Source: Clostridia bacterium
GTDB lineage: Bacteria; Bacillota; Clostridia; JAAYHZ01
Reading direction: 5' to 3'
Assembly: GCA_050950825.1 (NCBI GenBank)
Contig: JBMNIH010000002.1
Coordinates: 256,001-320,000 of the forward strand
Length of the DNA: 64,000 nucleotides
Both the position numbers and the translations under genes were made by a program. Each line of letters starts with the position of its first letter. Position 1 is the stretch's first letter. This document shows, piece by piece, positions 1-5,720 of this stretch. The notes under the pieces were generated by a model. That model searched no databases. It was not told where the DNA came from and worked only from the letters and a program-made list of their open reading frames with translations.

Positions 1-211
1 CTTCTCTTATGACGCTTACCGGGTGGCACAGGTTATCCAAAGGCTTCATGGAGTTTACGTCTACGGTTAAGCATTTTTCTCCTAGAAAATCCGTTAACTC
101 CTTGTTCCCTCTTCCTCTTTTATGCCCCGGCACATCAAACGGAACAATGCGGGCTTTTTTAAATTCTTCCAAAGCTTCGTATATCGGCGCCCTTCTTTGA
201 TCCAAGTGCAA
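1..211 (-). CDS. speA: Arginine/lysine/ornithine decarboxylase, PLP-dependent (N-terminus only, runs off window)
   Basis: Manual translation from TTG at 211 (RBS GGAGGG): MHLDQRRAPIYEALEEFKKARIVPFDVPGHKRGRGN...DVNSMKPLDNLCHP. The PFDVPGHK motif is typical of Orn/Lys/Arg decarboxylases. Directly follows speD. Not in the ORF track. Confidence 0.85.
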   Translation of the reverse strand, partial: MHLDQRRAPIYEALEEFKKARIVPFDVPGHKRGRGNKELTDFLGEKCLTVDVNSMKPLDNLCHPVSVIRE

Positions 212-228
212 CGTAAAAACCCCTCCTT

Positions 229-990
229 TCAGTAGATATTGATGCCGCTGAAAATCTCGATCATTTCTTTCCGCAATACATTCGTAATTCTTAGCCTTTC
301 CTTCGGGGGTATTTCGTATACATCGACGTTAAAGAGGTAGTTCTGCAAGTCGATTTCCTTGATCAAAGCTTTCGTATGGAATATATTGGACTGGTACACG
401 TTAATATCGATCATATCATATTTTTGCAATATGTCTTCGGAAATGAAATCTTGGATGGATGTTATTTTATGATCGATAAAAATCTTCTTGCCTTCTACGT
501 CGCGGGTAAATCCTCGAACACGATAATCCATGGTGATGATATCCGAATCAAAGCTTCCGATAAGAAAATCCAACGTGGACAAAGGTGTGATTTTACCGCA
601 GGTGGAAACATCGATATCCACTCGGAAGGTCGCAACGGAATTGTCGGGATGATACTCCGGATACGTATGGACGGTGATATGGCTTTTATCCAAATGGGCA
701 GCGACGGTGTCTTTTACCGGAGGAATCTTCGGTTCTTCGGAAATGAGGACGGTGACACTGGCCCCTTGGGGCTCGTAATCCTGCAAAGAAACATTCAGTA
801 CGGTGGCTCCGATCATATCCGTAAGCTTTAAAAGAATGTTTTTTAGCCGCTCCGAATTGTATTGCTCGTCAATGTAAGCAATATAATCCCTTTGCTCCTG
901 CTGCGTTTTGGCATAGCAAATATCGTAAATATTGAAGCTTAATGTTTTTGTTAAGTTATTAAATCCGTACAGTTTGATTTTGTTGTTCAT
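229..990 (-). CDS. speD: S-adenosylmethionine decarboxylase proenzyme
   Basis: [19 protein letters not shown]-terminus, [21 protein letters not shown] self-cleavage motif, DVSTCG. Start placed at ATG 990; an in-frame ATG at 1053 is the alternative. Confidence 0.95.
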
Positions 991-1137
991 GATCGTCGGG
1001 TTTAATCGATACAAACACGAAAGCCTGCATCCGGCCCTTTCGTATTCGTCCATCGATTAACCGGGAATCTCACCGCCTTTCTGTAGTAATAAAAAATCAA
1101 GTTGCTTATGCGCTTCAAGCTTTGTAAAAGGTGATAC

Positions 1138-1170
1138 AAAAAAAGTGTGTCGCTACAGTCGGCAACACAC
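1138..1170 (-). terminator. Intrinsic terminator (attenuator) in speD leader
   Basis: GTGTGTTGC-cgactgta-GCGACACAC followed by T7 on the minus strand. Confidence 0.85.
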
Positions 1171-1470
1171 CCGTGATAGATATCGTAATTGTAGAAGACG
1201 ACGCAGCGCCTTCCTTGCCGTTTTTTAAACGGGCAATCGTCAGAGCATTTTAGTAAGAACTACCTTAACTACTCTTATTGACCTTTTCACAAGTGTGTAC
1301 CGCTGTACACGTTTACGGTTTATAGTAACCAACTTATAAAATTCGAGCGTATGCTCAATCAATAATGCAGCTATCGCTGCAGCGGCAGTCGACCCGGCTG
1401 TCCGTTAGCCTTTTACCCTTCGGGCGGTCATTCTTACTACAATGCATTTATGTCTGCATCGTTCGGGAAT
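1138..1470 (-). ncRNA. Structured cis-regulatory leader/attenuator of speD-speA (riboswitch candidate, context matches ldcC-type motif)
   Basis: Lies between a sigmaA promoter and an intrinsic terminator. Long-range stem 1431-1445/1245-1259, several internal hairpins, and an antiterminator pairing 1287-1302/1160-1176. Confidence 0.75.
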
Positions 1471-1476
1471 GGAACG

Positions 1477-1505
1477 AGTTTAGCACGTTCACCCTCCCTT
1501 GTCAA
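1477..1505 (-). promoter_or_regulatory. sigmaA promoter of speD operon
   Basis: TTGACA-17 bp-TAAACT with extended TG. Confidence 0.85.
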
Positions 1506-1527
1506 CATATTTCATCTATATATATTA

Positions 1528-2754
1528 TTATATGAAAAACACCCCGCCCGGTTCATATATGTATTTTCCGCTTAAATAGTGCCGTTTTATACTTCTTTCC
1601 AAAGTCGTTCTTTCCGGCAAATCCTCCAAACGCTCGTATCGATCAAAAAAGACAAAGGTTATGGCTCCTCTGCCGCTGCTGTAGGTCGGAAAACGCATGT
1701 ATTTATTCTGAAACGTTACGATGTTGGAGTCCGGCGGCAGCATGTCGGCCAGCTGCGGGTCCATCAACCACGAAAAGCATACAAATGCTTTAAACCGGAA
1801 TTCGGGAAAGCATTTCGAAATAACCTCCGCCGACCTTTTGTAGGATTCTTCGCACAGTTCGGGAGTCAATTTTTCACCGGCCGGGATATGAACGCTGAGG
1901 ACAGGATCTTCGGGACTTAGCACAATACGCCAATCGGATACGGGAAGCTTGGTCCTTTCTTTTAATGCGCGACCGTTCTTCCCTACAAGATGGCCTTCGA
2001 AATATTCTTCCGTTTGAACAAAGCTTGCATCAAAGGATCCCTCATCGTCTTCATACCCCGGAATACCTAAAACCATACCGTCCCTGTGGAGTCTTACGCC
2101 GGTCATCATCATAAGCCGTTCGCCCTTTTGGTTTTCCAACACGTAAACAGGACCTTTAAACATGGAGCGCATTTCGATGTTCAATCGCCCTACGCGCAAA
2201 ATGGTTACGTCGATATACCGCTGGATCCAATTAAAATATCGTTTATCAAAGCCGTATCGGTCCGTTTTCCTTTTGTAACCTTTTAAGCATTCTTCGTAAG
2301 CCGTATGGGTGGCAAAGCGAATATCCGTGGGCACACCCCGCTCTTTCAGCACGGAATCGATTCGAGGAATTTTGGATAGCAAGGTAAAAAGCAGTGCAAA
2401 GTCATACGGCGCAGGGTCTTCTCCCGGAGAAAAAGAAGGAACCTCCAAAGCGCCTATTTCCCTTTTGAAAGACTCCCGATCCTCCATAGCCAAGTCAAGA
2501 AGCAGAATATACTGCATAAGCTCAGGAAAGCTTTTTAATTTTTCCGCCGCATCCAAAACCTCATCCAGCGTATTATCGAAAAGCCTGTACTTTTCATGAA
2601 GCTCCAATATATACTCTCGGCCGGGATAGATACCTCCGTAGCCTACAAAGCTTTCTTTTAGCCTTTCGTTAAAAAGGTTCCATCGATCGGGATAACCGGA
2701 GATCTTCAGCTTTTTCATCAACTCTTCTACGGAATTTACCATGTTGATTGCCAT
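1528..2754 (-). CDS. Acyltransferase-domain protein (GNAT-like N- and C-terminal domains)
   Basis: 408 aa; GRLNIE, LSVHIPAGEKLTPELCEESY and FVCFSWLMDPQL motifs typical of this family. Confidence 0.7.
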   Translation of the reverse strand: MAINMVNSVEELMKKLKISGYPDRWNLFNERLKESFVGYGGIYPGREYILELHEKYRLFDNTLDEVLDAAEKLKSFPELMQYILLLDLAMEDRESFKREIGALEVPSFSPGEDPAPYDFALLFTLLSKIPRIDSVLKERGVPTDIRFATHTAYEECLKGYKRKTDRYGFDKRYFNWIQRYIDVTILRVGRLNIEMRSMFKGPVYVLENQKGERLMMMTGVRLHRDGMVLGIPGYEDDEGSFDASFVQTEEYFEGHLVGKNGRALKERTKLPVSDWRIVLSPEDPVLSVHIPAGEKLTPELCEESYKRSAEVISKCFPEFRFKAFVCFSWLMDPQLADMLPPDSNIVTFQNKYMRFPTYSSGRGAITFVFFDRYERLEDLPERTTLERSIKRHYLSGKYIYEPGGVFFI

Positions 2755-2768
2755 ACCTTACCTTCCTT

Positions 2769-3623
2769 TTACCACATCCGATTCCATTCTTCGTTAAAAC
2801 GAAGACTTTCTTCTTCGTTTTTTAATATACGCAGAACATTTACGGCCCGGTCTACCGCCATTTGGGTGTAAGCCTTTCCAATCCTCTCGTTTACGTTTAA
2901 GGGAGGGTCTCCCGCATAGGAGTTAGGATAATCCGCGTTCCAAAAATGGGCGGTGTATATTCCCGCTTTCGTCAAATGATCAAATCTTTTCGTAGAAGCG
3001 CTGCTTTCCGCTTCGTACTTGTCCGTTCGAACCAGCTCCGGATAGGTGCCCAGCATTCCCGCCGTTTCGCAAAAACCCCCGTGTTCGTCGGTTTTCTTTT
3101 TTACAACGTAATCGTTTAAAATATCCAAATCCTCCCGGGTTAAATAGGAGAACCTCTCTTTATTTTCTTGAATGACCTTCAGCATATACGACGGATGCAA
3201 AAGATTGTTGAAGAACGTGTAGACCACGTAATCCTTTTTCCTATAAAGGGTCGTACGAATGAAATTATTCAAAAAAGCGATATTCCCTCCGTGACCGTTA
3301 AACAAAAGAATTTTCTTAAACCCGTTTCGGGCAATCTCATCGCACAATTCCGTCATCAACGAAAGGAGCAGCCCGCCGCTTAAAATAACGGAGCCCTTGT
3401 GTTGATGCAAGCCTTGGATGTCGCCGAAATAAAAGCAGGGAAATACGCAAACCGGTTCGATTTCCGAAGCCGTTTCCAAAACCTTATTTGCTTCCAATGT
3501 ATCGGTTCCGACCGGCAGATGCTGCCCGTGCTTTTCAAGGCATCCGACGGCCATTGCACAGACCCCTTTGGATATTTTTATGGCATCATCAAATTCTTCT
3601 TCCCTCAAATACGCCCACAACAT
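2769..3623 (-). CDS. Creatininase-family amidohydrolase
   Basis: GCLEKHGQHLPVGTD, NGHGGN and EHGGFCET metal-binding motifs; RBS GGAGGAG. Confidence 0.9.
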   Translation of the reverse strand: MLWAYLREEEFDDAIKISKGVCAMAVGCLEKHGQHLPVGTDTLEANKVLETASEIEPVCVFPCFYFGDIQGLHQHKGSVILSGGLLLSLMTELCDEIARNGFKKILLFNGHGGNIAFLNNFIRTTLYRKKDYVVYTFFNNLLHPSYMLKVIQENKERFSYLTREDLDILNDYVVKKKTDEHGGFCETAGMLGTYPELVRTDKYEAESSASTKRFDHLTKAGIYTAHFWNADYPNSYAGDPPLNVNERIGKAYTQMAVDRAVNVLRILKNEEESLRFNEEWNRMW

Positions 3624-3724
3624 AGACGATCCTCCTCCCGCCTATTATCAAGCTTATTATACCATGCAAATGTTCCCATGCCACCTTTTTTTATCCTAAG
3701 CAAATGTGCTTGGCCTTACCGGCT

Positions 3725-3761
3725 AAAAAAAGCCGTACTTCGGAATTCATCCGAGTACGGC
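3725..3761 (-). terminator. Intrinsic terminator after SBP gene
   Basis: GCCGTACTCGGA-loop-TCCGAAGTACGGC followed by T7 on the minus strand. Confidence 0.8.
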
Positions 3762-3779
3762 ATATTTTAATCCTTACCA

Positions 3780-5720
3780 TTAATTAATAGTCGGCCAAAT
3801 AATGGTCAAGTCCGGTGTCTTGTAGTATGCAAATTGATCGCTCATGTAGAAATCTTTCACGAGCTTTTCAAGACCTGCATCGTACAAACGGTTGATGTAT
3901 TGCTCCCACTCGGTTTCGTAGTTGGAGATTTGTCCGTTCCAAGAACGATTACGGAAGTCGGCAATGATGTTGTTAATGTCGCCGCTGATGTTCGCCCAGT
4001 AATCGTTGTATTCTTTCATCATATCGTCGGGTACATATGTGGAGCTCCAGTACTTGATGGGCTCAATGCAGTAGTATTTGTACCATTCTTCTTCGTAAAT
4101 CCTTCTTGTAATTTGCGACTTCGCTTCATGAGAGAACAAGTCCGGTCCGCCGGTGGAGAATATTCCGATGAATCCGCCGTATCTGCTGTAGTGAGGAGGA
4201 ATCTTCGTGGCGTCCGTTTGTATTCTTGCGGAGTTCCAAGGCTCACCGCTCCATGTGTAATGTACGCCTTCGATTCCGAAACGTACTTTGGACCAGAAAG
4301 GATCGTTTAAAGCAGCCGTATTGGCATCGTTCCACATCGTCAAAACACGGGCAAGCTTTTCGTCGGAAACTTGTTTTCCTACCAACCAGGTTCTGAAGGT
4401 ACCCGAACCGAAAGCGTCAAGATTGTATCTTCTTGTTCCCCATTTGTTGTTCGGTTCCCAACCGTATGCATTGCCTAATACCGGCCATACAACGAAGGTT
4501 GCCGATTCGTCACCGGCATTGAGCCAGATGCTCTGCGGCGGCTGTCTGTCGGAGTATTCGGGGAAGTCCGGTCTGCCGATGTACTGCATGTCGCAGAAGA
4601 AGTATCCGATTTTACCGGTCATCCAGTTTGCCAGCAGGTTGTCGTACCAAGAACCTTGAGGCGCCAAGCTCTGGAAGCCTTCAGGCAGGGTTCTTATGTA
4701 CCCTTTGTCTCTCATTTCAACGGCCCACTTCATGTAGTCTCTGTATCCTACATAAGCGTACCAAGGTACAATGTCTCCCGTGACGGGGTCTTCATACAGG
4801 AAGTTTCCGTCGGAGGAAATGACGCCGAATTGTCCCCACCAAAGATCCGTCCAGTGAGAGCGGAAGCTGTGATCAAATATGACGGCTCCGTATGTATCGT
4901 CTTCACCGTTTCCGTCCGGGTCGTCTTCCGTGAAGGCGCGGAAGATATCGTTCATATCTTCGAAGCTCCAAATATAGCTGGTTAGATAAATTTGCCCGCT
5001 GTATTTGCCCAATTTTTCGTCGGTTAAGGTTATGGGTGTCAGCAAGCTGTCATCAATACTATAACCGATGTTCTCCAGCCAGTCGTAACGCATCAACGGA
5101 ATGTTGTAATACCATTTGTTGTCCACTACATAGGAAATACCGTAGAAGTTATCGGACAAGGAACCGTCTTCATTTCTGCAGTTGTTGTGGATATAGGAAG
5201 TCGGCTCGTTTTGCAGCATCAATTCATAGTAATACGGGAAATATTTTTTGTACATTTCGATGTTGATCAGTCGAGTCAGCCCTTGTTCGTACAATTGGGG
5301 AGGACCTAAAGGAGAGTGATCCAAGTGGCTGATATCGGGCATATCGCCTGCCGCCAACATCATGGCGATTCCTTCCGGGTCGTATGTGCTGATTGCCCAC
5401 GGCTTCAAATCAATGTTGTACCTTTCTTCCAACATCTTTTCGTCGAATCCGCCTTCAACATAATCCGTTGTAATGGTAGCAATCCAAGTAATTTCAAAGA
5501 ATTCGGCAAAAGGATTTTCTTCTACGGCTTGCGTAGTCGTTGCCGCAGTCGTGGTTGTTTGTCCCGCTGTAGTCGTAACGGCTTTGGTTGTTGTCGTTGC
5601 GGCAGCGGTTGTCGTTGTTGTTTCCTGCGACTGCTCCGTCGAACTAGAGCAAGCTACCATTGAGAACATCACACCAATAACTACAAGTACACATAACAGT
5701 TGTTTTACGTGCCTAGACAT
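3780..5720 (-). CDS. Extracellular solute-binding lipoprotein (ABC sugar type, LplA-like), paralog 1
   Basis: Lipobox MVAC, Thr/Ala-rich linker, FTEDDPDGNGEDDTYG, FGIEGVHY, C-terminal WEQYINRLYDAGLEKLV. Confidence 0.85.
   Translation of the reverse strand: MSRHVKQLLCVLVVIGVMFSMVACSSSTEQSQETTTTTAAATTTTKAVTTTAGQTTTTAATTTQAVEENPFAEFFEITWIATITTDYVEGGFDEKMLEERYNIDLKPWAISTYDPEGIAMMLAAGDMPDISHLDHSPLGPPQLYEQGLTRLINIEMYKKYFPYYYELMLQNEPTSYIHNNCRNEDGSLSDNFYGISYVVDNKWYYNIPLMRYDWLENIGYSIDDSLLTPITLTDEKLGKYSGQIYLTSYIWSFEDMNDIFRAFTEDDPDGNGEDDTYGAVIFDHSFRSHWTDLWWGQFGVISSDGNFLYEDPVTGDIVPWYAYVGYRDYMKWAVEMRDKGYIRTLPEGFQSLAPQGSWYDNLLANWMTGKIGYFFCDMQYIGRPDFPEYSDRQPPQSIWLNAGDESATFVVWPVLGNAYGWEPNNKWGTRRYNLDAFGSGTFRTWLVGKQVSDEKLARVLTMWNDANTAALNDPFWSKVRFGIEGVHYTWSGEPWNSARIQTDATKIPPHYSRYGGFIGIFSTGGPDLFSHEAKSQITRRIYEEEWYKYYCIEPIKYWSSTYVPDDMMKEYNDYWANISGDINNIIADFRNRSWNGQISNYETEWEQYINRLYDAGLEKLVKDFYMSDQFAYYKTPDLTIIWPTIN

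What the first reader, a model, noticed from the sequence alone, without database searches (positions are those of the whole stretch)
1138..1505. Polyamine-operon leader with a complete switch architecture (orphan riboswitch candidate)
Seen: a sigmaA promoter drives ~330 nt of structured RNA ending in a T7 terminator before speD-speA. The 5' segment GCAUUGUAGUAAGAA (1431-1445) pairs 14/15 with 1245-1259 and encloses about six small hairpins in multiway junctions. The same segment can instead pair with GUCGUCUUCUACAAU (1188-1202). CGGUACACACUUGUGA (1287-1302) can form ~16 bp with UCACGGGUGUGUUGCCG (1160-1176), which includes the terminator's 5' arm, so it is a candidate antiterminator. It is otherwise buried in the internal junction. 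Known: the ldcC orphan motif occurs upstream of Arg/Orn/SAM decarboxylases in Bacillota, and to my knowledge its ligand is unproven; the described spermidine riboswitch is a SAM-I variant whose signature I do not see here. Inference: a polyamine-, dcSAM- or arginine-sensing transcriptional OFF switch with a readable expression platform.
Basis: partly seen in the sequence, partly recalled or inferred. Interest (0 to 1): 0.8.

Follow-up and report, generated by a model that had tools for sequence, protein, structure and literature searches.

The report
Polyamine-operon leader: enlarged ldcC RNA switch
The leader in front of this bacterium's spermidine-synthesis operon is a member of the known but ligand-less "ldcC" RNA family, and comparison with relatives shows that the family is about four times larger than its database model and is wired to a terminator like a classic OFF riboswitch.

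Summary
On the minus strand there are a sigma-70-type promoter (1505-1477), about 330 nt of structured leader and a hairpin+U7 terminator (1172-1138) before speD-speA. The leader is not a new orphan. Rfam's ldcC/SpF59 model (RF02440) hits 1430-1382 above its gathering score.

That 54-nt model covers only the 5' quarter of what is conserved. A 221-position covariance model built here matches the window (1455-1240, 129 bits). It also matches every ldcC instance I fetched: 60 of the 120 15-mer scan loci (the other 60 are chance matches) and 16 of 16 distinct Rfam-found loci. Covariation supports its helices.

The antiterminator principle recurs family-wide: the conserved ACUUGUGAAA strand pairs with the terminator's 5' arm. 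The second pairing (1188-1202) is not supported.

Downstream genes are SpeA-like, SpeD, PotA or carboxynorspermidine-dehydrogenase-like. The window's operon encodes the whole arginine-to-spermidine route. This argues for an end-product (spermidine-type) OFF switch, but ligand binding is untested.

Two genomes carry the 3' domain without the ldcC module.

The parts
1477..1505 (-). Sigma-70-type promoter: -35 TTGACA 1505-1500, 17-nt spacer, extended -10 TG-n-TAAACT 1482-1477. The inferred start of transcription is about 1470-1466.
   Evidence: 10 of 12 matches, TG present. Both hexamers are conserved in the same-genus relative. An RNA-library contig of run X19 ends at 1466 (weak hint only).
1240..1455 (-). 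Full conserved RNA (extended ldcC RNA): a 5' ldcC module plus a 3' domain, enclosed by an outer helix.
   Evidence: Model R1 (221 positions, 50 bp) matches 1240-1455 over its full length at 129.4 bits, E 6e-30.
1382..1430 (-). ldcC module as modelled by Rfam. P1 is 1430-1426/1394-1390 and P1b is 1425-1422/1418-1415. The bulge carries ACGGACAGCC, and the 3' tail is ACUGCCG.
   Evidence: RF02440, 43.8 bits against gathering 37.2, E 8.5e-6. It is the only gathering-level Rfam hit in the whole window. Pairs are mapped.
1431..1445 (-).
   Evidence: It pairs 14 of 15 with 1259-1245. The helix is present with differing sequences across the family.
1245..1259 (-). 3' strand of the closing helix P0b.
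   Evidence: The window and G001 carry GUAAGAA/UUCUUAC where other members carry GCAAGAx/xUCUUGC, a change on both sides.
1367..1380 (-). P2, a hairpin of variable sequence (GCAGC-GAUA-GCUGC).
   Evidence: All 3 modelled pairs show changes on both sides across 66 sequences.
1276..1364 (-). 3' domain. P3 is 1364-1357/1283-1276. The P3a hairpin is 1356-1345. P4 is 1341-1332/1294-1285. The P4a hairpin is 1330-1317. The P4b hairpin is 1310-1295. Together they form two stacked three-way junctions.
   Evidence: Pairs are mapped. For the extension alone, 96.5% of cells pair against 91.6% in shuffles (0 of 500 reach it) and 45.3% or less when slid; 15 of 35 pairs change on both sides. RNAalifold predicted the same helices on a plain MAFFT alignment.
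1285..1307 (-). Switch strand. The 3' strands of P4b and P4 (including the conserved ACUUGUGAAA) pair either within the aptamer or with the terminator's 5' arm.
1270..1275 (-). Nearly invariant internal AGAGUA, complementary to (UG)CUCU at 1247-1242. This is a possible pseudoknot or a competitor of the outermost helix.
   Evidence: Internal AGAGU:ACUCU complementarity holds in 293 of 308 cells. The 5'-terminal AGAGU pairs in 256 of 308 cells. The two cannot be resolved because the letters do not vary.
1191..1234 (-). Two linker hairpins between the aptamer and the terminator. They are not conserved in sequence in the same-genus relative.
1138..1176 (-). Intrinsic terminator: stem 1172-1143, loop 1161-1154, U7 1144-1138. 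The 5' flank and 5' arm (1176-1154) form the antiterminator's partner.
   Evidence: The 5' arm is identical in G001 while the 3' arm differs yet still pairs.
991..1137 (-). Spacer of 146 nt between the terminator and the speD start. It holds a long hairpin and is absent from the same-genus relative.
   Evidence: single copy in the genome; -41.8 kcal/mol, z -2.6.
229..1053 (-). speD (E. coli-type S-adenosylmethionine decarboxylase). The start that fits homologues is the ATG at 990.
   Evidence: Pfam AdoMet_dc. TIGR03331 scores 407.8 bits against a cut-off of 255.8.
2..211 (-). 5' end of a SpeA-like PLP decarboxylase (Orn/Lys/Arg decarboxylase family). The operon continues beyond the window with speE, speB, a carboxynorspermidine-synthase-like gene and nspC.

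Best explanation
The leader is a cis-acting RNA switch of the ldcC class that controls premature transcription termination of a six-gene spermidine-synthesis operon.

Transcription starts about 1470. The first ~230 nt fold into a two-module RNA. The modules are the 54-nt ldcC module (1430-1382) and a ~110-nt 3' domain made of two stacked three-way junctions (1364-1276). They are clamped together by helix 1445-1431/1259-1245.

The 3' strands of helices P4b and P4 (1307-1285, including the family-invariant ACUUGUGAAA) are also complementary to the 5' arm of the downstream terminator (1176-1154).
- If the 3' domain is held in its folded form, that strand is unavailable. The terminator 1172-1143+U7 forms and the operon is OFF.
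- If the domain is not held, the strand pairs with the terminator's 5' arm (12-21 bp). Termination is prevented and the operon is ON.

Shown here: family membership, the extended conserved structure with covariation, and the recurring terminator/antiterminator complementarity.

Inferred: the folded state is stabilised by direct binding of an end-product polyamine, most likely spermidine or a close analogue. My odds are about 0.8 for a regulated terminator switch of this wiring and about 0.45 for direct sensing of a spermidine-type polyamine.
For: 1. Membership. RF02440 hits at 43.8 bits against gathering 37.2. It is the only gathering-level Rfam hit in the window.

2. Extended structure.
- Model R1 matches the window over its full length (129.4 bits).
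- It also matches 65 other loci among the 126 sources searched. All 60 ldcC-like loci of the 120 scan hits match. The other 60 are chance 15-mers without ldcC context.
- All 6 Rfam-found loci of 61 relatives and all 11 Rfam-found Bacilli loci match it too.

3. Covariation.
- 95.4% of cells pair against 88.0% in shuffles (0 of 500 reach it) and 47.7% or less when slid. 25 of 50 pairs change on both sides.
- For the extension alone: 96.5% against 91.6%, and 15 of 35 pairs.
- RNAalifold on an unfitted MAFFT alignment finds the same helices.

4. Expression platform.
- My scan found a hairpin plus U-run within 300 nt downstream in 64 of 64 loci that have downstream sequence.
- The best duplex between the P4b/P4 3' strands and the terminator's 5' arm averages -12.4 kcal/mol. 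Shuffled arms give -6.6 and non-cognate arms -10.5.
- z is below -2 in 41 of 64 loci, and 60 of 64 duplexes use the conserved CUUG. The window gives -17.7 with z -5.1.

5. Energetics in the window. The antiterminator fold is 5.4-7.0 kcal/mol better than the aptamer fold when the transcript ends at 1154-1150. The two are equal once the terminator is complete, -101.3 against -101.6.

6. Gene logic.
- The first downstream ORFs of 63 loci are OKR_DC_1 17, AdoMet_dc 17, ABC_tran/PotA-like 16 and Sacchrp_dh (carboxynorspermidine-synthase-like) 12.
- The window's operon is speD, speA-like, speE, speB, a carboxynorspermidine-synthase-like gene and nspC.
- Synthesis and uptake are all shut by the same OFF design, which fits an end product as the signal.

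7. Weak hint of the terminated RNA. Metatranscriptome contigs of 3 of 4 runs, from different studies, stop at 1136-1151. One spans 1151-1466.
Against: - No ligand was or could be tested.
- A3 is fitted to the model's structure, and the sequences are related. Both inflate pair counts.
- The two long helices of the 3' domain (P3, P4) are almost invariant. Only 1 of 8 and 2 of 11 of their pairs change on both sides. Their pairing rests mainly on one-sided G-U/A-U changes and on an A.C to G.U exchange at their end.
- 23 of 64 loci have an antiterminator z of -2 or weaker. Several 'terminators' from my simple scan are poor, for example L082 at -4.2 kcal/mol.
- The non-cognate duplex mean (-10.5) is close to the cognate mean (-12.4), because most of the complementarity lies in the invariant strand.
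- The unconstrained minimum-energy fold of the complete leader already contains aptamer-like helices plus the terminator (-107.3). Thermodynamics alone would therefore give constitutive OFF.
- Contigs cannot show true RNA ends. One RNA contig (X17, 1110-1390) runs past the terminator, though by only 28 nt, short of the 31 needed to count as bridging it. X15's contig reaches 1519, upstream of the promoter.
- Lactobacillales, from which the name SpF59 comes, were not examined.
Confidence: 0.6

Rival explanations
1. The same RNA and terminator/antiterminator wiring operate, but the folded state is stabilised by an RNA-binding protein, itself responsive to polyamines or another signal, rather than by a small molecule.
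For: Long stretches of invariant sequence inside helices (P3, P4) and in single-stranded joints (GAGUAGUAAAAGU, UAUAUAG) would also suit a protein-binding site. No ligand has been reported for ldcC since 2017 in the library searched.
Against: The RNA occurs in named Bacilli, Clostridia and a Negativicute (record titles, hits). It sits before four different gene classes. No regulator gene is seen as a constant neighbour, although I did not survey neighbours systematically. Multi-junction architecture with conserved joints is typical of metabolite aptamers (established knowledge, recalled).
Confidence: 0.17
2. It is a riboswitch, but the ligand is not spermidine. Candidates are putrescine, agmatine, cadaverine, dcSAM/SAM/MTA or arginine. 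Alternatively it senses total polycation load through many weak sites, in the manner of the Mg2+ M-box, rather than one specific polyamine.
For: All regulated genes lie in or next to arginine-to-spermidine metabolism. The RNA is large and carries conserved U.G wobble pairs in P3 and P4: U.G in 56-60 of 63 and 55-60 of 65 sequences. Such pairs are known cation sites (recalled, not tested).
Against: - dcSAM, SAM and MTA do not fit the 12 of 63 loci that control only the dcSAM-independent carboxy(nor)spermidine route, nor the 16 potA loci.
- Arginine, agmatine and putrescine are substrates of enzymes that this OFF switch would shut. That is the wrong sign for a substrate signal.
- No SAM-type aptamer is detectable.
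Confidence: 0.15
3. The terminated leader is mainly a trans-acting small RNA (as the Rfam name SpF59 sRNA implies), or it is a constitutive attenuator without a signal.
For: Rfam files the family as 'Gene; sRNA'. RNA-library contigs cover the leader as a separate piece. The full-length minimum-energy fold is the terminated form.
Against: The RNA always lies directly upstream of, and on the same strand as, polyamine genes: 62 of the 63 first ORFs hit one of four polyamine-related Pfam families, and the one left, a 43-residue fragment cut by its locus end, starts like a SpeA-type decarboxylase. The terminator's 5' arm co-varies with the variable P4b strand. Examples are window UACACACUUGUGAA/AUCACGGGUGUGUU, L009 GCGCAGACUUGUGA/ACGCAAGUCUGCACA and L036. 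A constitutive terminator would not need this.
Confidence: 0.05
4. Attenuation is driven by translation of a leader peptide (speFL-type or uORF-type polyamine sensing) rather than by RNA structure.
For: The window has a 40-codon ORF inside the leader (1362-1240, TTG start).
Against: The frame is not conserved. Read from the equivalent UUGAUUG, it stays open for 30 or more codons in only 6 of 56 relatives, with a median of 9 codons. Hairpin length changes shift the frame, and base-pair covariation is seen instead.
Confidence: 0.02

Closest known systems
ldcC RNA motif (Weinberg et al. 2017, PMC5737381; Rfam RF02440 'SpF59 sRNA (ldcC RNA)')
   Same: The window matches the covariance model above its gathering score. 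It has the same hairpin with bulge, the same conserved ACGGACAGCCGGGUC and the UGCCG tail. It has the same position in 5' UTRs of Arg/Orn/SAM decarboxylase and PotA genes. The ligand is equally unknown (passages of section 30 read).
   Different: The published description (hairpin with a bulge plus a possible pseudoknot) and the 54-position Rfam model cover only 1430-1382. Here every ldcC instance examined carries a further conserved ~110-nt two-junction domain, an enclosing helix and a terminator wired to that domain. Two genomes have the 3' domain without the ldcC module. I could not see the paper's supplementary alignment, which may show flanks.
Spermidine riboswitch, a SAM-I variant (Salvail et al. 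2023, PMC10853860)
   Same: It is a terminator-based OFF switch upstream of speE/speB/speD/ldcC-type genes in Bacillota, with the same regulatory logic: the end product shuts polyamine synthesis (passages read).
   Different: There is no SAM-I-like aptamer. No SAM-clan or any other Rfam family hits within 1-4000 at E up to 10. The fold differs, being ldcC hairpin plus two three-way junctions. Per the same paper the SAM-I variant is rare (13 representatives), whereas this RNA occurred in 6 of 61, 11 of 151 and 6 of 151 sampled genomes.
M-box Mg2+ riboswitch and other large cation-responsive leaders (recalled, no call)
   Same: It is a large multi-helix leader RNA in Bacillota whose compaction would hide an antiterminator strand and allow a terminator to form. 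The presumed ligand is cationic.
   Different: There is no sequence or model similarity. Multi-site cation binding here is only a conjecture.
speFL / uORF polyamine sensing (cited in PMC10319736, passages read)
   Same: Polyamine pathway genes are controlled from the 5' leader.
   Different: Those systems need a translated leader peptide. No conserved ORF exists here.

Membership tests
ldcC RNA motif (Rfam RF02440) | Scores at or above the family's gathering threshold against the covariance model | tested here: met
   43.8 bits against 37.2, E 8.5e-6, model positions 1-54 of 54. The hit is repeated in the whole-window gathering run and the own-genome search.
ldcC RNA motif (Rfam RF02440) | Hairpin with an internal bulge that carries highly conserved nucleotides | tested here: met
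   P1 is 1430-1426/1394-1390 and P1b is 1425-1422/1418-1415, with the bulge AAAAGGCUAACGGACAGCC. Across 66 sequences, all 5 pairs of P1b and 1 of the 5 pairs of P1 change on both sides.
ldcC RNA motif (Rfam RF02440) | Possible pseudoknot formed by invariant nucleotides (3' tail UGCCG) | tested here: inconclusive
   The tail ACUGCCG is present at 1389-1383. The letters do not vary, so covariation cannot test the pairing, and the mutual-information scan found no extra supported pairing there.
ldcC RNA motif (Rfam RF02440) | Lies in the 5' UTR of Arg/Orn/SAM decarboxylase or PotA genes | tested here: met
   It lies upstream of speD (TIGR03331, 407.8 bits) and a SpeA-like OKR_DC_1 gene.
ldcC RNA motif (Rfam RF02440) | Host belongs to Firmicutes/Bacillota (or a few Spirochaetes) | tested here: inconclusive
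Named records with the same extended RNA are Bacillota: Paenibacillus, Priestia, Blautia, Oscillospiraceae, Acidaminococcus and others.
Spermidine riboswitch (SAM-I variant) | SAM-I-type four-way-junction aptamer | tested here: not met
   No SAM-clan hit in 1-4000 at E up to 10.
Spermidine riboswitch (SAM-I variant) | Spermidine-triggered intrinsic termination | not testable with these tools
   A terminator and antiterminator are present. Ligand response needs a bench assay.
Riboswitch in general (aptamer plus expression platform) | Conserved structured domain supported by covariation | tested here: met
Riboswitch in general (aptamer plus expression platform) | Mutually exclusive terminator and antiterminator that share a strand with the conserved domain | tested here: met
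   Window pairing 1298-1287/1176-1165 competes with P4/P4b and with the terminator stem. The pattern recurs in 60 of 64 loci, with z<-2 in 41 of 64.
Riboswitch in general (aptamer plus expression platform) | Direct, selective binding of a metabolite | not testable with these tools
   No call can test this.
T-box, lysine and other characterised leader families | Match to the family's covariance model | tested here: not met
   Only RF02440 and a chance snoRNA match (18.7 bits against 42) appear at E up to 10.
Leader-peptide attenuators (speFL-like) | Conserved translated short ORF in the leader | tested here: not met
   The frame stays open for 30 or more codons in 6 of 56 loci, median 9 codons.

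The most novel reading that the evidence does not exclude
The published 54-nt ldcC motif is only an accessory 5' module. The real sensor would be the unmodelled ~110-nt 3' domain: two stacked three-way junctions with conserved U.G wobbles, directly wired to the terminator. This domain can stand alone (L146, L150). It would define a second, widespread class of spermidine/polyamine-sensing riboswitch in Bacillota that governs synthesis by both spermidine routes and uptake. If only the short motif was ever assayed, that would explain why no ligand has been reported for ldcC.
Probability: 0.35. Interest if true: 0.8.

Novelty: new member of a known kind. Interest (0 to 1): 0.62.

Why it matters
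ldcC has been an orphan riboswitch candidate since 2017. In the library searched, the only validated bacterial polyamine riboswitch is a rare SAM-I variant.

The conserved unit is about 220 nt, with a consistent OFF platform and a gene set that points to spermidine. This gives a concrete construct (1455-1240, or the equivalent from a cultured Paenibacillus or Priestia) and a short ligand list for in-line probing and termination assays. A long-open question thereby becomes directly testable.

It also shows that the Rfam model under-describes the family, and that a stand-alone 3' domain exists which current annotation cannot see.

Tried and rejected
1. It is present but at chance level in the window (z -1.1) and absent as a family feature. 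Rejected.

2. Leader peptide. The window's 40-codon ORF is not conserved. Rejected.

3. Other Rfam families (SAM-I, T-box, lysine and others). There is none at E up to 10 in 1-4000 and none at gathering level in the whole window.

4. Extra pseudoknots. A mutual-information scan of A3 gave mostly in-model pairs and lineage-linked columns. The only new candidate is an A.C/G.U exchange that extends P4. My idea that the P4a loop pairs with the AAAAGU joint was looked at only by eye. That look gave no clear support, and I did not test it formally.

5. Which AGAGU pairs with the 3' ACUCU, the 5'-terminal one or the internal one. This stays unresolved because the letters are invariant.

6. Spacer 991-1136 as a repeat or mobile element. 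It is single copy in the genome.

7. Lactobacillales. The order of G071 held only 4 genomes and is evidently another order. I found no way to reach Streptococcus or Lactococcus genomes, so whether their ldcC RNAs carry the extension is untested.

8. Literature.
- 'ldcC motif' gave 1 paper and ldcC plus riboswitch gave 6.
- The six polyamine/putrescine/agmatine/cadaverine riboswitch terms gave 2 papers.
- SpF59 gave 2 papers, both irrelevant.
- The potA/speA/speD/speE/potB motif terms gave 0.
- potABCD plus riboswitch gave 15. I read passages of two and both were unrelated.
- Subscription journals and supplements were not visible.

9. RNA runs.
- Parts of 200-1800 without contig cover in some runs (for example 897-1148 in X16) are no evidence.
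- RNA libraries may contain DNA.

Full report
WHAT IS THERE. All features lie on the minus strand. A sigma-70-type promoter has TTGACA at 1505-1500, a 17-nt spacer and TG-n-TAAACT ending at 1477. About 330 nt downstream sits an intrinsic terminator: stem 1172-1143, 11 pairs, loop of 8, then U7 at 1144-1138.

Then come a 146-nt spacer and speD. Its ORF runs 1053-229, and the start that fits homologues is the ATG at 990. It scores 407.8 bits on TIGR03331. Next is a SpeA-like PLP decarboxylase whose first 70 codons are the last thing in the window.

I fetched the contig beyond the window. The operon continues with speE (NF002010, 398 bits), agmatinase (TIGR01230, 272 bits), a carboxynorspermidine-synthase-like gene (412 bits, below the model's cut-off of 800) and nspC (TIGR01047, 502 bits). 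A MATE transporter follows after a gap. The leader therefore controls a complete arginine-to-spermidine pathway by both known routes.

The leader folds much better than shuffles: -113.5 against -90.8+/-5.3 kcal/mol, z -4.3, and 0 of 100 shuffles fold as well.

I read the coordinates off.
- 1445-1431 is GCAUUGUAGUAAGAA. It pairs 14 of 15 with 1259-1245.
Their continuous core is 12 bp, 1298-1287 with 1176-1165 (-17.7 kcal/mol, z -5.1).
- When the transcript is cut inside the terminator loop, the minimum-energy fold extends this helix to about 21 bp, 1307-1287 with 1176-1154.
- The proposed alternative partner 1202-1188 does form 7+4 bp. It is at chance level (z -1.1) and has no counterpart in relatives: median z -0.08, and z<-2 in 5 of 59 loci.

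IDENTITY. cmscan of 1-4000 against all 4227 Rfam families at E up to 10 gives one real hit. It is RF02440, 'SpF59 sRNA (ldcC RNA)', at 1430-1382, 43.8 bits against a gathering score of 37.2. It is also the only gathering-level hit in the 64-kb window and the only copy in the genome.

The ldcC motif was described in 2017 as a hairpin with a bulge plus a possible invariant pseudoknot. It lies upstream of Arg/Orn/SAM decarboxylase and PotA genes in Firmicutes, and its suggested role is in polyamine homeostasis (PMC5737381, section 30, passages read).

In the library I could search, no later paper treats it. The only validated polyamine riboswitch there is a SAM-I variant (PMC10853860), and the window shows no trace of it. 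So the element belongs to a known, still ligand-less class. It is not a new orphan.

THE FAMILY IS LARGER THAN ITS MODEL. I printed the six Rfam-found loci from 61 related genomes. They share a long, almost invariant stretch 3' of the 54-nt model.

I then scanned genome contigs for the motif's 15-base core. I aligned 17 of them and let RNAalifold predict a structure on that unfitted alignment. From this I built a 221-position, 50-bp covariance model, R1.

Results with R1:
- It matches 66 places in the 126 sources searched. These are the window (1455-1240, full length, 129.4 bits, E 6e-30), the five relatives and 60 of the 120 scan loci. Two of the 60 are cut by a locus end.
- The other 60 scan loci have no ldcC context around the 15-mer and are chance matches, mostly in GC-rich DNA.
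- In a sample that did not depend on the 15-mer, Rfam's model found 11 of 151 Bacilli genomes. All of those loci match R1 over its full length. That call also held two handle loci, one of which (L128) matched model positions 25-193 only.

Thus every ldcC instance I obtained has the extension. Named carriers include Paenibacillus, Priestia, Brevibacillus, Neobacillus, Weizmannia, Blautia, Ruminococcus, Butyricicoccus, many Oscillospiraceae, Christensenellaceae and Acidaminococcus.

STRUCTURE.
- The outer helix P0b is 1445-1431/1259-1245.
- The ldcC module has P1 at 1430-1426/1394-1390 and P1b at 1425-1422/1418-1415.
- P2, a variable hairpin, is 1380-1367.
- P3 (1364-1357/1283-1276) closes a three-way junction that holds hairpin P3a (1356-1345) and the long helix P4 (1341-1332/1294-1285).
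- P4 in turn closes a second three-way junction with hairpins P4a (1330-1317) and P4b (1310-1295).
- A conserved joint follows, AAGAGUAG... at 1276-1262.

Support from the 66-sequence alignment:
- 95.4% of cells form standard pairs, against 88.0% when partners are shuffled (0 of 500 shuffles reach it) and at most 47.7% when partners are slid. 25 of 50 pairs change on both sides.
- For the 35 pairs of the extension alone, the figures are 96.5% against 91.6% and at most 45.3%, with 15 pairs changing on both sides.

Caveats:
- The alignment is fitted to the model and the sequences are related.
- P3 and P4 are nearly invariant, with only 1 of 8 and 2 of 11 pairs changing on both sides. Their support is mainly one-sided G-U/A-U exchanges.
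- An A.C to G.U exchange at the end of P4 adds some support: 38 A-C, 17 G-U.

P0b, which the model left unpaired, is seen as a duplex of differing sequence in most members. The cognate mean is -8.8 kcal/mol (n 63) against -6.5 for non-cognate strands (n 3906). An ungapped register count gives 64-100% pairing over the first eight positions, with several pair types. The window and its congener carry GUAAGAA/UUCUUAC where others have GCAAGAx/xUCUUGC.

The invariant 3' ACUCU can pair with a 5'-terminal AGAGU (256 of 308 cells) or with an invariant internal AGAGU (293 of 308 cells). Which one is used, or whether they alternate, cannot be decided.

EXPRESSION PLATFORM. My simple scan found a hairpin followed by at least four U within 300 nt downstream in all 64 loci that have downstream sequence. 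The energies run from -4.2 to -24.7 kcal/mol, and a few are doubtful.

I computed the best duplex between the 3' strands of P4b+P4 and the terminator's 5' flank and arm.
- It averages -12.4 kcal/mol. Shuffled arms give -6.6 and non-cognate arms -10.5.
- z is below -2 in 41 of 64 loci.
- 60 of 64 duplexes include the invariant CUUG.
- The variable P4b strand and the terminator arm change together: window UACACACUUGUGAA/AUCACGGGUGUGUU, L009 GCGCAGACUUGUGA/ACGCAAGUCUGCACA, L090 GGCAUAAAACUUGUGAAAU/UUUUUGCAAGUGAUAUGCCG.

In the same-genus genome the terminator's 5' arm is identical. The 3' arm differs but still pairs.

In the window the antiterminator fold beats the consensus aptamer fold by 5.4-7.0 kcal/mol when the transcript ends at 1154-1150. 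The two are equal once the terminator is complete, -101.3 against -101.6. A few kcal/mol of extra stabilisation of the 3' domain would therefore decide the outcome. This is the standard design of a transcriptional OFF riboswitch.

WHAT SIGNAL. The first ORFs downstream of 63 loci fall into four classes. Three further loci had no ORF in reach.
- 17 are Orn/Lys/Arg-decarboxylase (SpeA-like).
- 17 are AdoMet decarboxylase.
- 16 are ABC ATPases of the PotA type (13 with TOBE_2).
- 12 are saccharopine-dehydrogenase-fold proteins nearest to carboxynorspermidine synthase.

One variant precedes an agmatinase-like gene. Synthesis by both routes and uptake are all placed under the same OFF design. The carboxyspermidine route does not use dcSAM, and putrescine, agmatine and arginine are substrates of the controlled enzymes. 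I therefore infer that the common end product, spermidine or a close triamine, is the likeliest signal. This is inference from pathway logic, not a measurement.

EXPRESSION. The stretch is held by DNA runs labelled sludge, digester or bioreactor metagenomes and by six metatranscriptome runs. I laid four RNA runs from four studies, all as contigs. Pieces cover 1136-1519 (X15), 1149 to beyond 1800 (X16), 1110-1390 (X17) and 1151-1466 (X19).

Three of the four stop within 15 nt of the terminator. One piece begins at 1466, just downstream of the -10 box. Contigs cannot show RNA ends, DNA may be present in the libraries, and I laid no DNA run beside them.

RIVALS.
- A leader peptide is excluded by lack of frame conservation.
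- A protein-dependent attenuator, a different ligand, or multi-site polycation sensing remain open.
- A purely trans-acting sRNA or a constitutive terminator is unlikely, given the constant cis position and the co-variation of the terminator arm with P4b.

VARIANTS. R1 also found leaders that Rfam's model misses.
- In G036 (L146, before speD) and G237 (L150, before a SpeA-like gene), the 3' domain, outer elements and terminator are present but the ldcC module is replaced by unrelated sequence.
- In G225 (L151, before an agmatinase-like gene), the ldcC module is present but the 3' domain is truncated.

The 3' domain, which is the part wired to the terminator, can therefore stand alone.

VERDICT. 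The window holds an ordinary member of the ldcC family.

The useful result is about the family. Its conserved unit is about 220 nt, it has a readable OFF platform, and its gene set points to spermidine.

Noticed in passing
L146 1501-1682 (genome G036) and L150 (genome G237, G237:C3:16355-16549): These leaders have the complete 3' domain, the outer elements and a terminator, but no ldcC module. They lie upstream of speD and of a SpeA-like gene respectively. Rfam's RF02440 does not detect them.
   Followed up: partly
L151 (genome G225, G225:C163:1979-2156): This variant has an ldcC-like core differing by one base and a truncated 3' domain that lacks P3a and most of P4/P4b. It lies upstream of an agmatinase-like ORF and still has a terminator.
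   Followed up: no
L152 (G000:C2:249001-256300), just beyond window position 1: The operon behind the leader combines both spermidine routes. The genes are speD, a SpeA-like gene, speE, speB, a carboxynorspermidine-synthase-like gene and nspC. They are tightly packed or overlapping, and a MATE efflux gene follows after about 170 nt.
   Followed up: partly
window 991-1137 (-): A 146-nt spacer between the terminator and the speD start is absent from the same-genus relative. It is single copy in the genome and folds into a long hairpin (about 1068-1000) that covers the upstream ATG at 1053. The true speD start (ATG 1053 or ATG 990) and its ribosome-binding site are unclear.
   Followed up: partly
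alignment A3 columns 336 and 444 (window A1342 and A1284): An A.C (38 sequences) to G.U (17 sequences) exchange flanks helix P4. This is the pattern expected of an isosteric wobble pair. The window itself has A/A there.
   Followed up: no
alignment A3 columns 240-241/445-446 and 341, 343/440, 438 (window 1358-1357/1282-1283 and 1338, 1336/1288, 1290): There are conserved U.G wobble pairs, a tandem pair in P3 and two in P4. They are kept as wobbles in 55-60 of about 64 sequences instead of drifting to Watson-Crick pairs. They may be cation or polyamine sites (conjecture).
   Followed up: no
window 1270-1275, 1242-1247 and 1453-1456 (-); A3 columns 1-6, 454-458, 493-497: Two AGAGU copies, a less conserved 5'-terminal one and an invariant internal one, compete for a single invariant ACUCU at the 3' end of the RNA. 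This is a possible pseudoknot or a second switch point.
   Followed up: partly
window 1528-2754 (-) and 2769-3623 (-): Upstream neighbours on the same strand are a GNAT_C/NAT_N acyltransferase-like protein (408 aa) ending 23 nt before the -35 box, and a creatininase-family protein. RNA-library contigs of X16 and X17 run from that gene into the leader, so read-through from upstream is possible.
   Followed up: no
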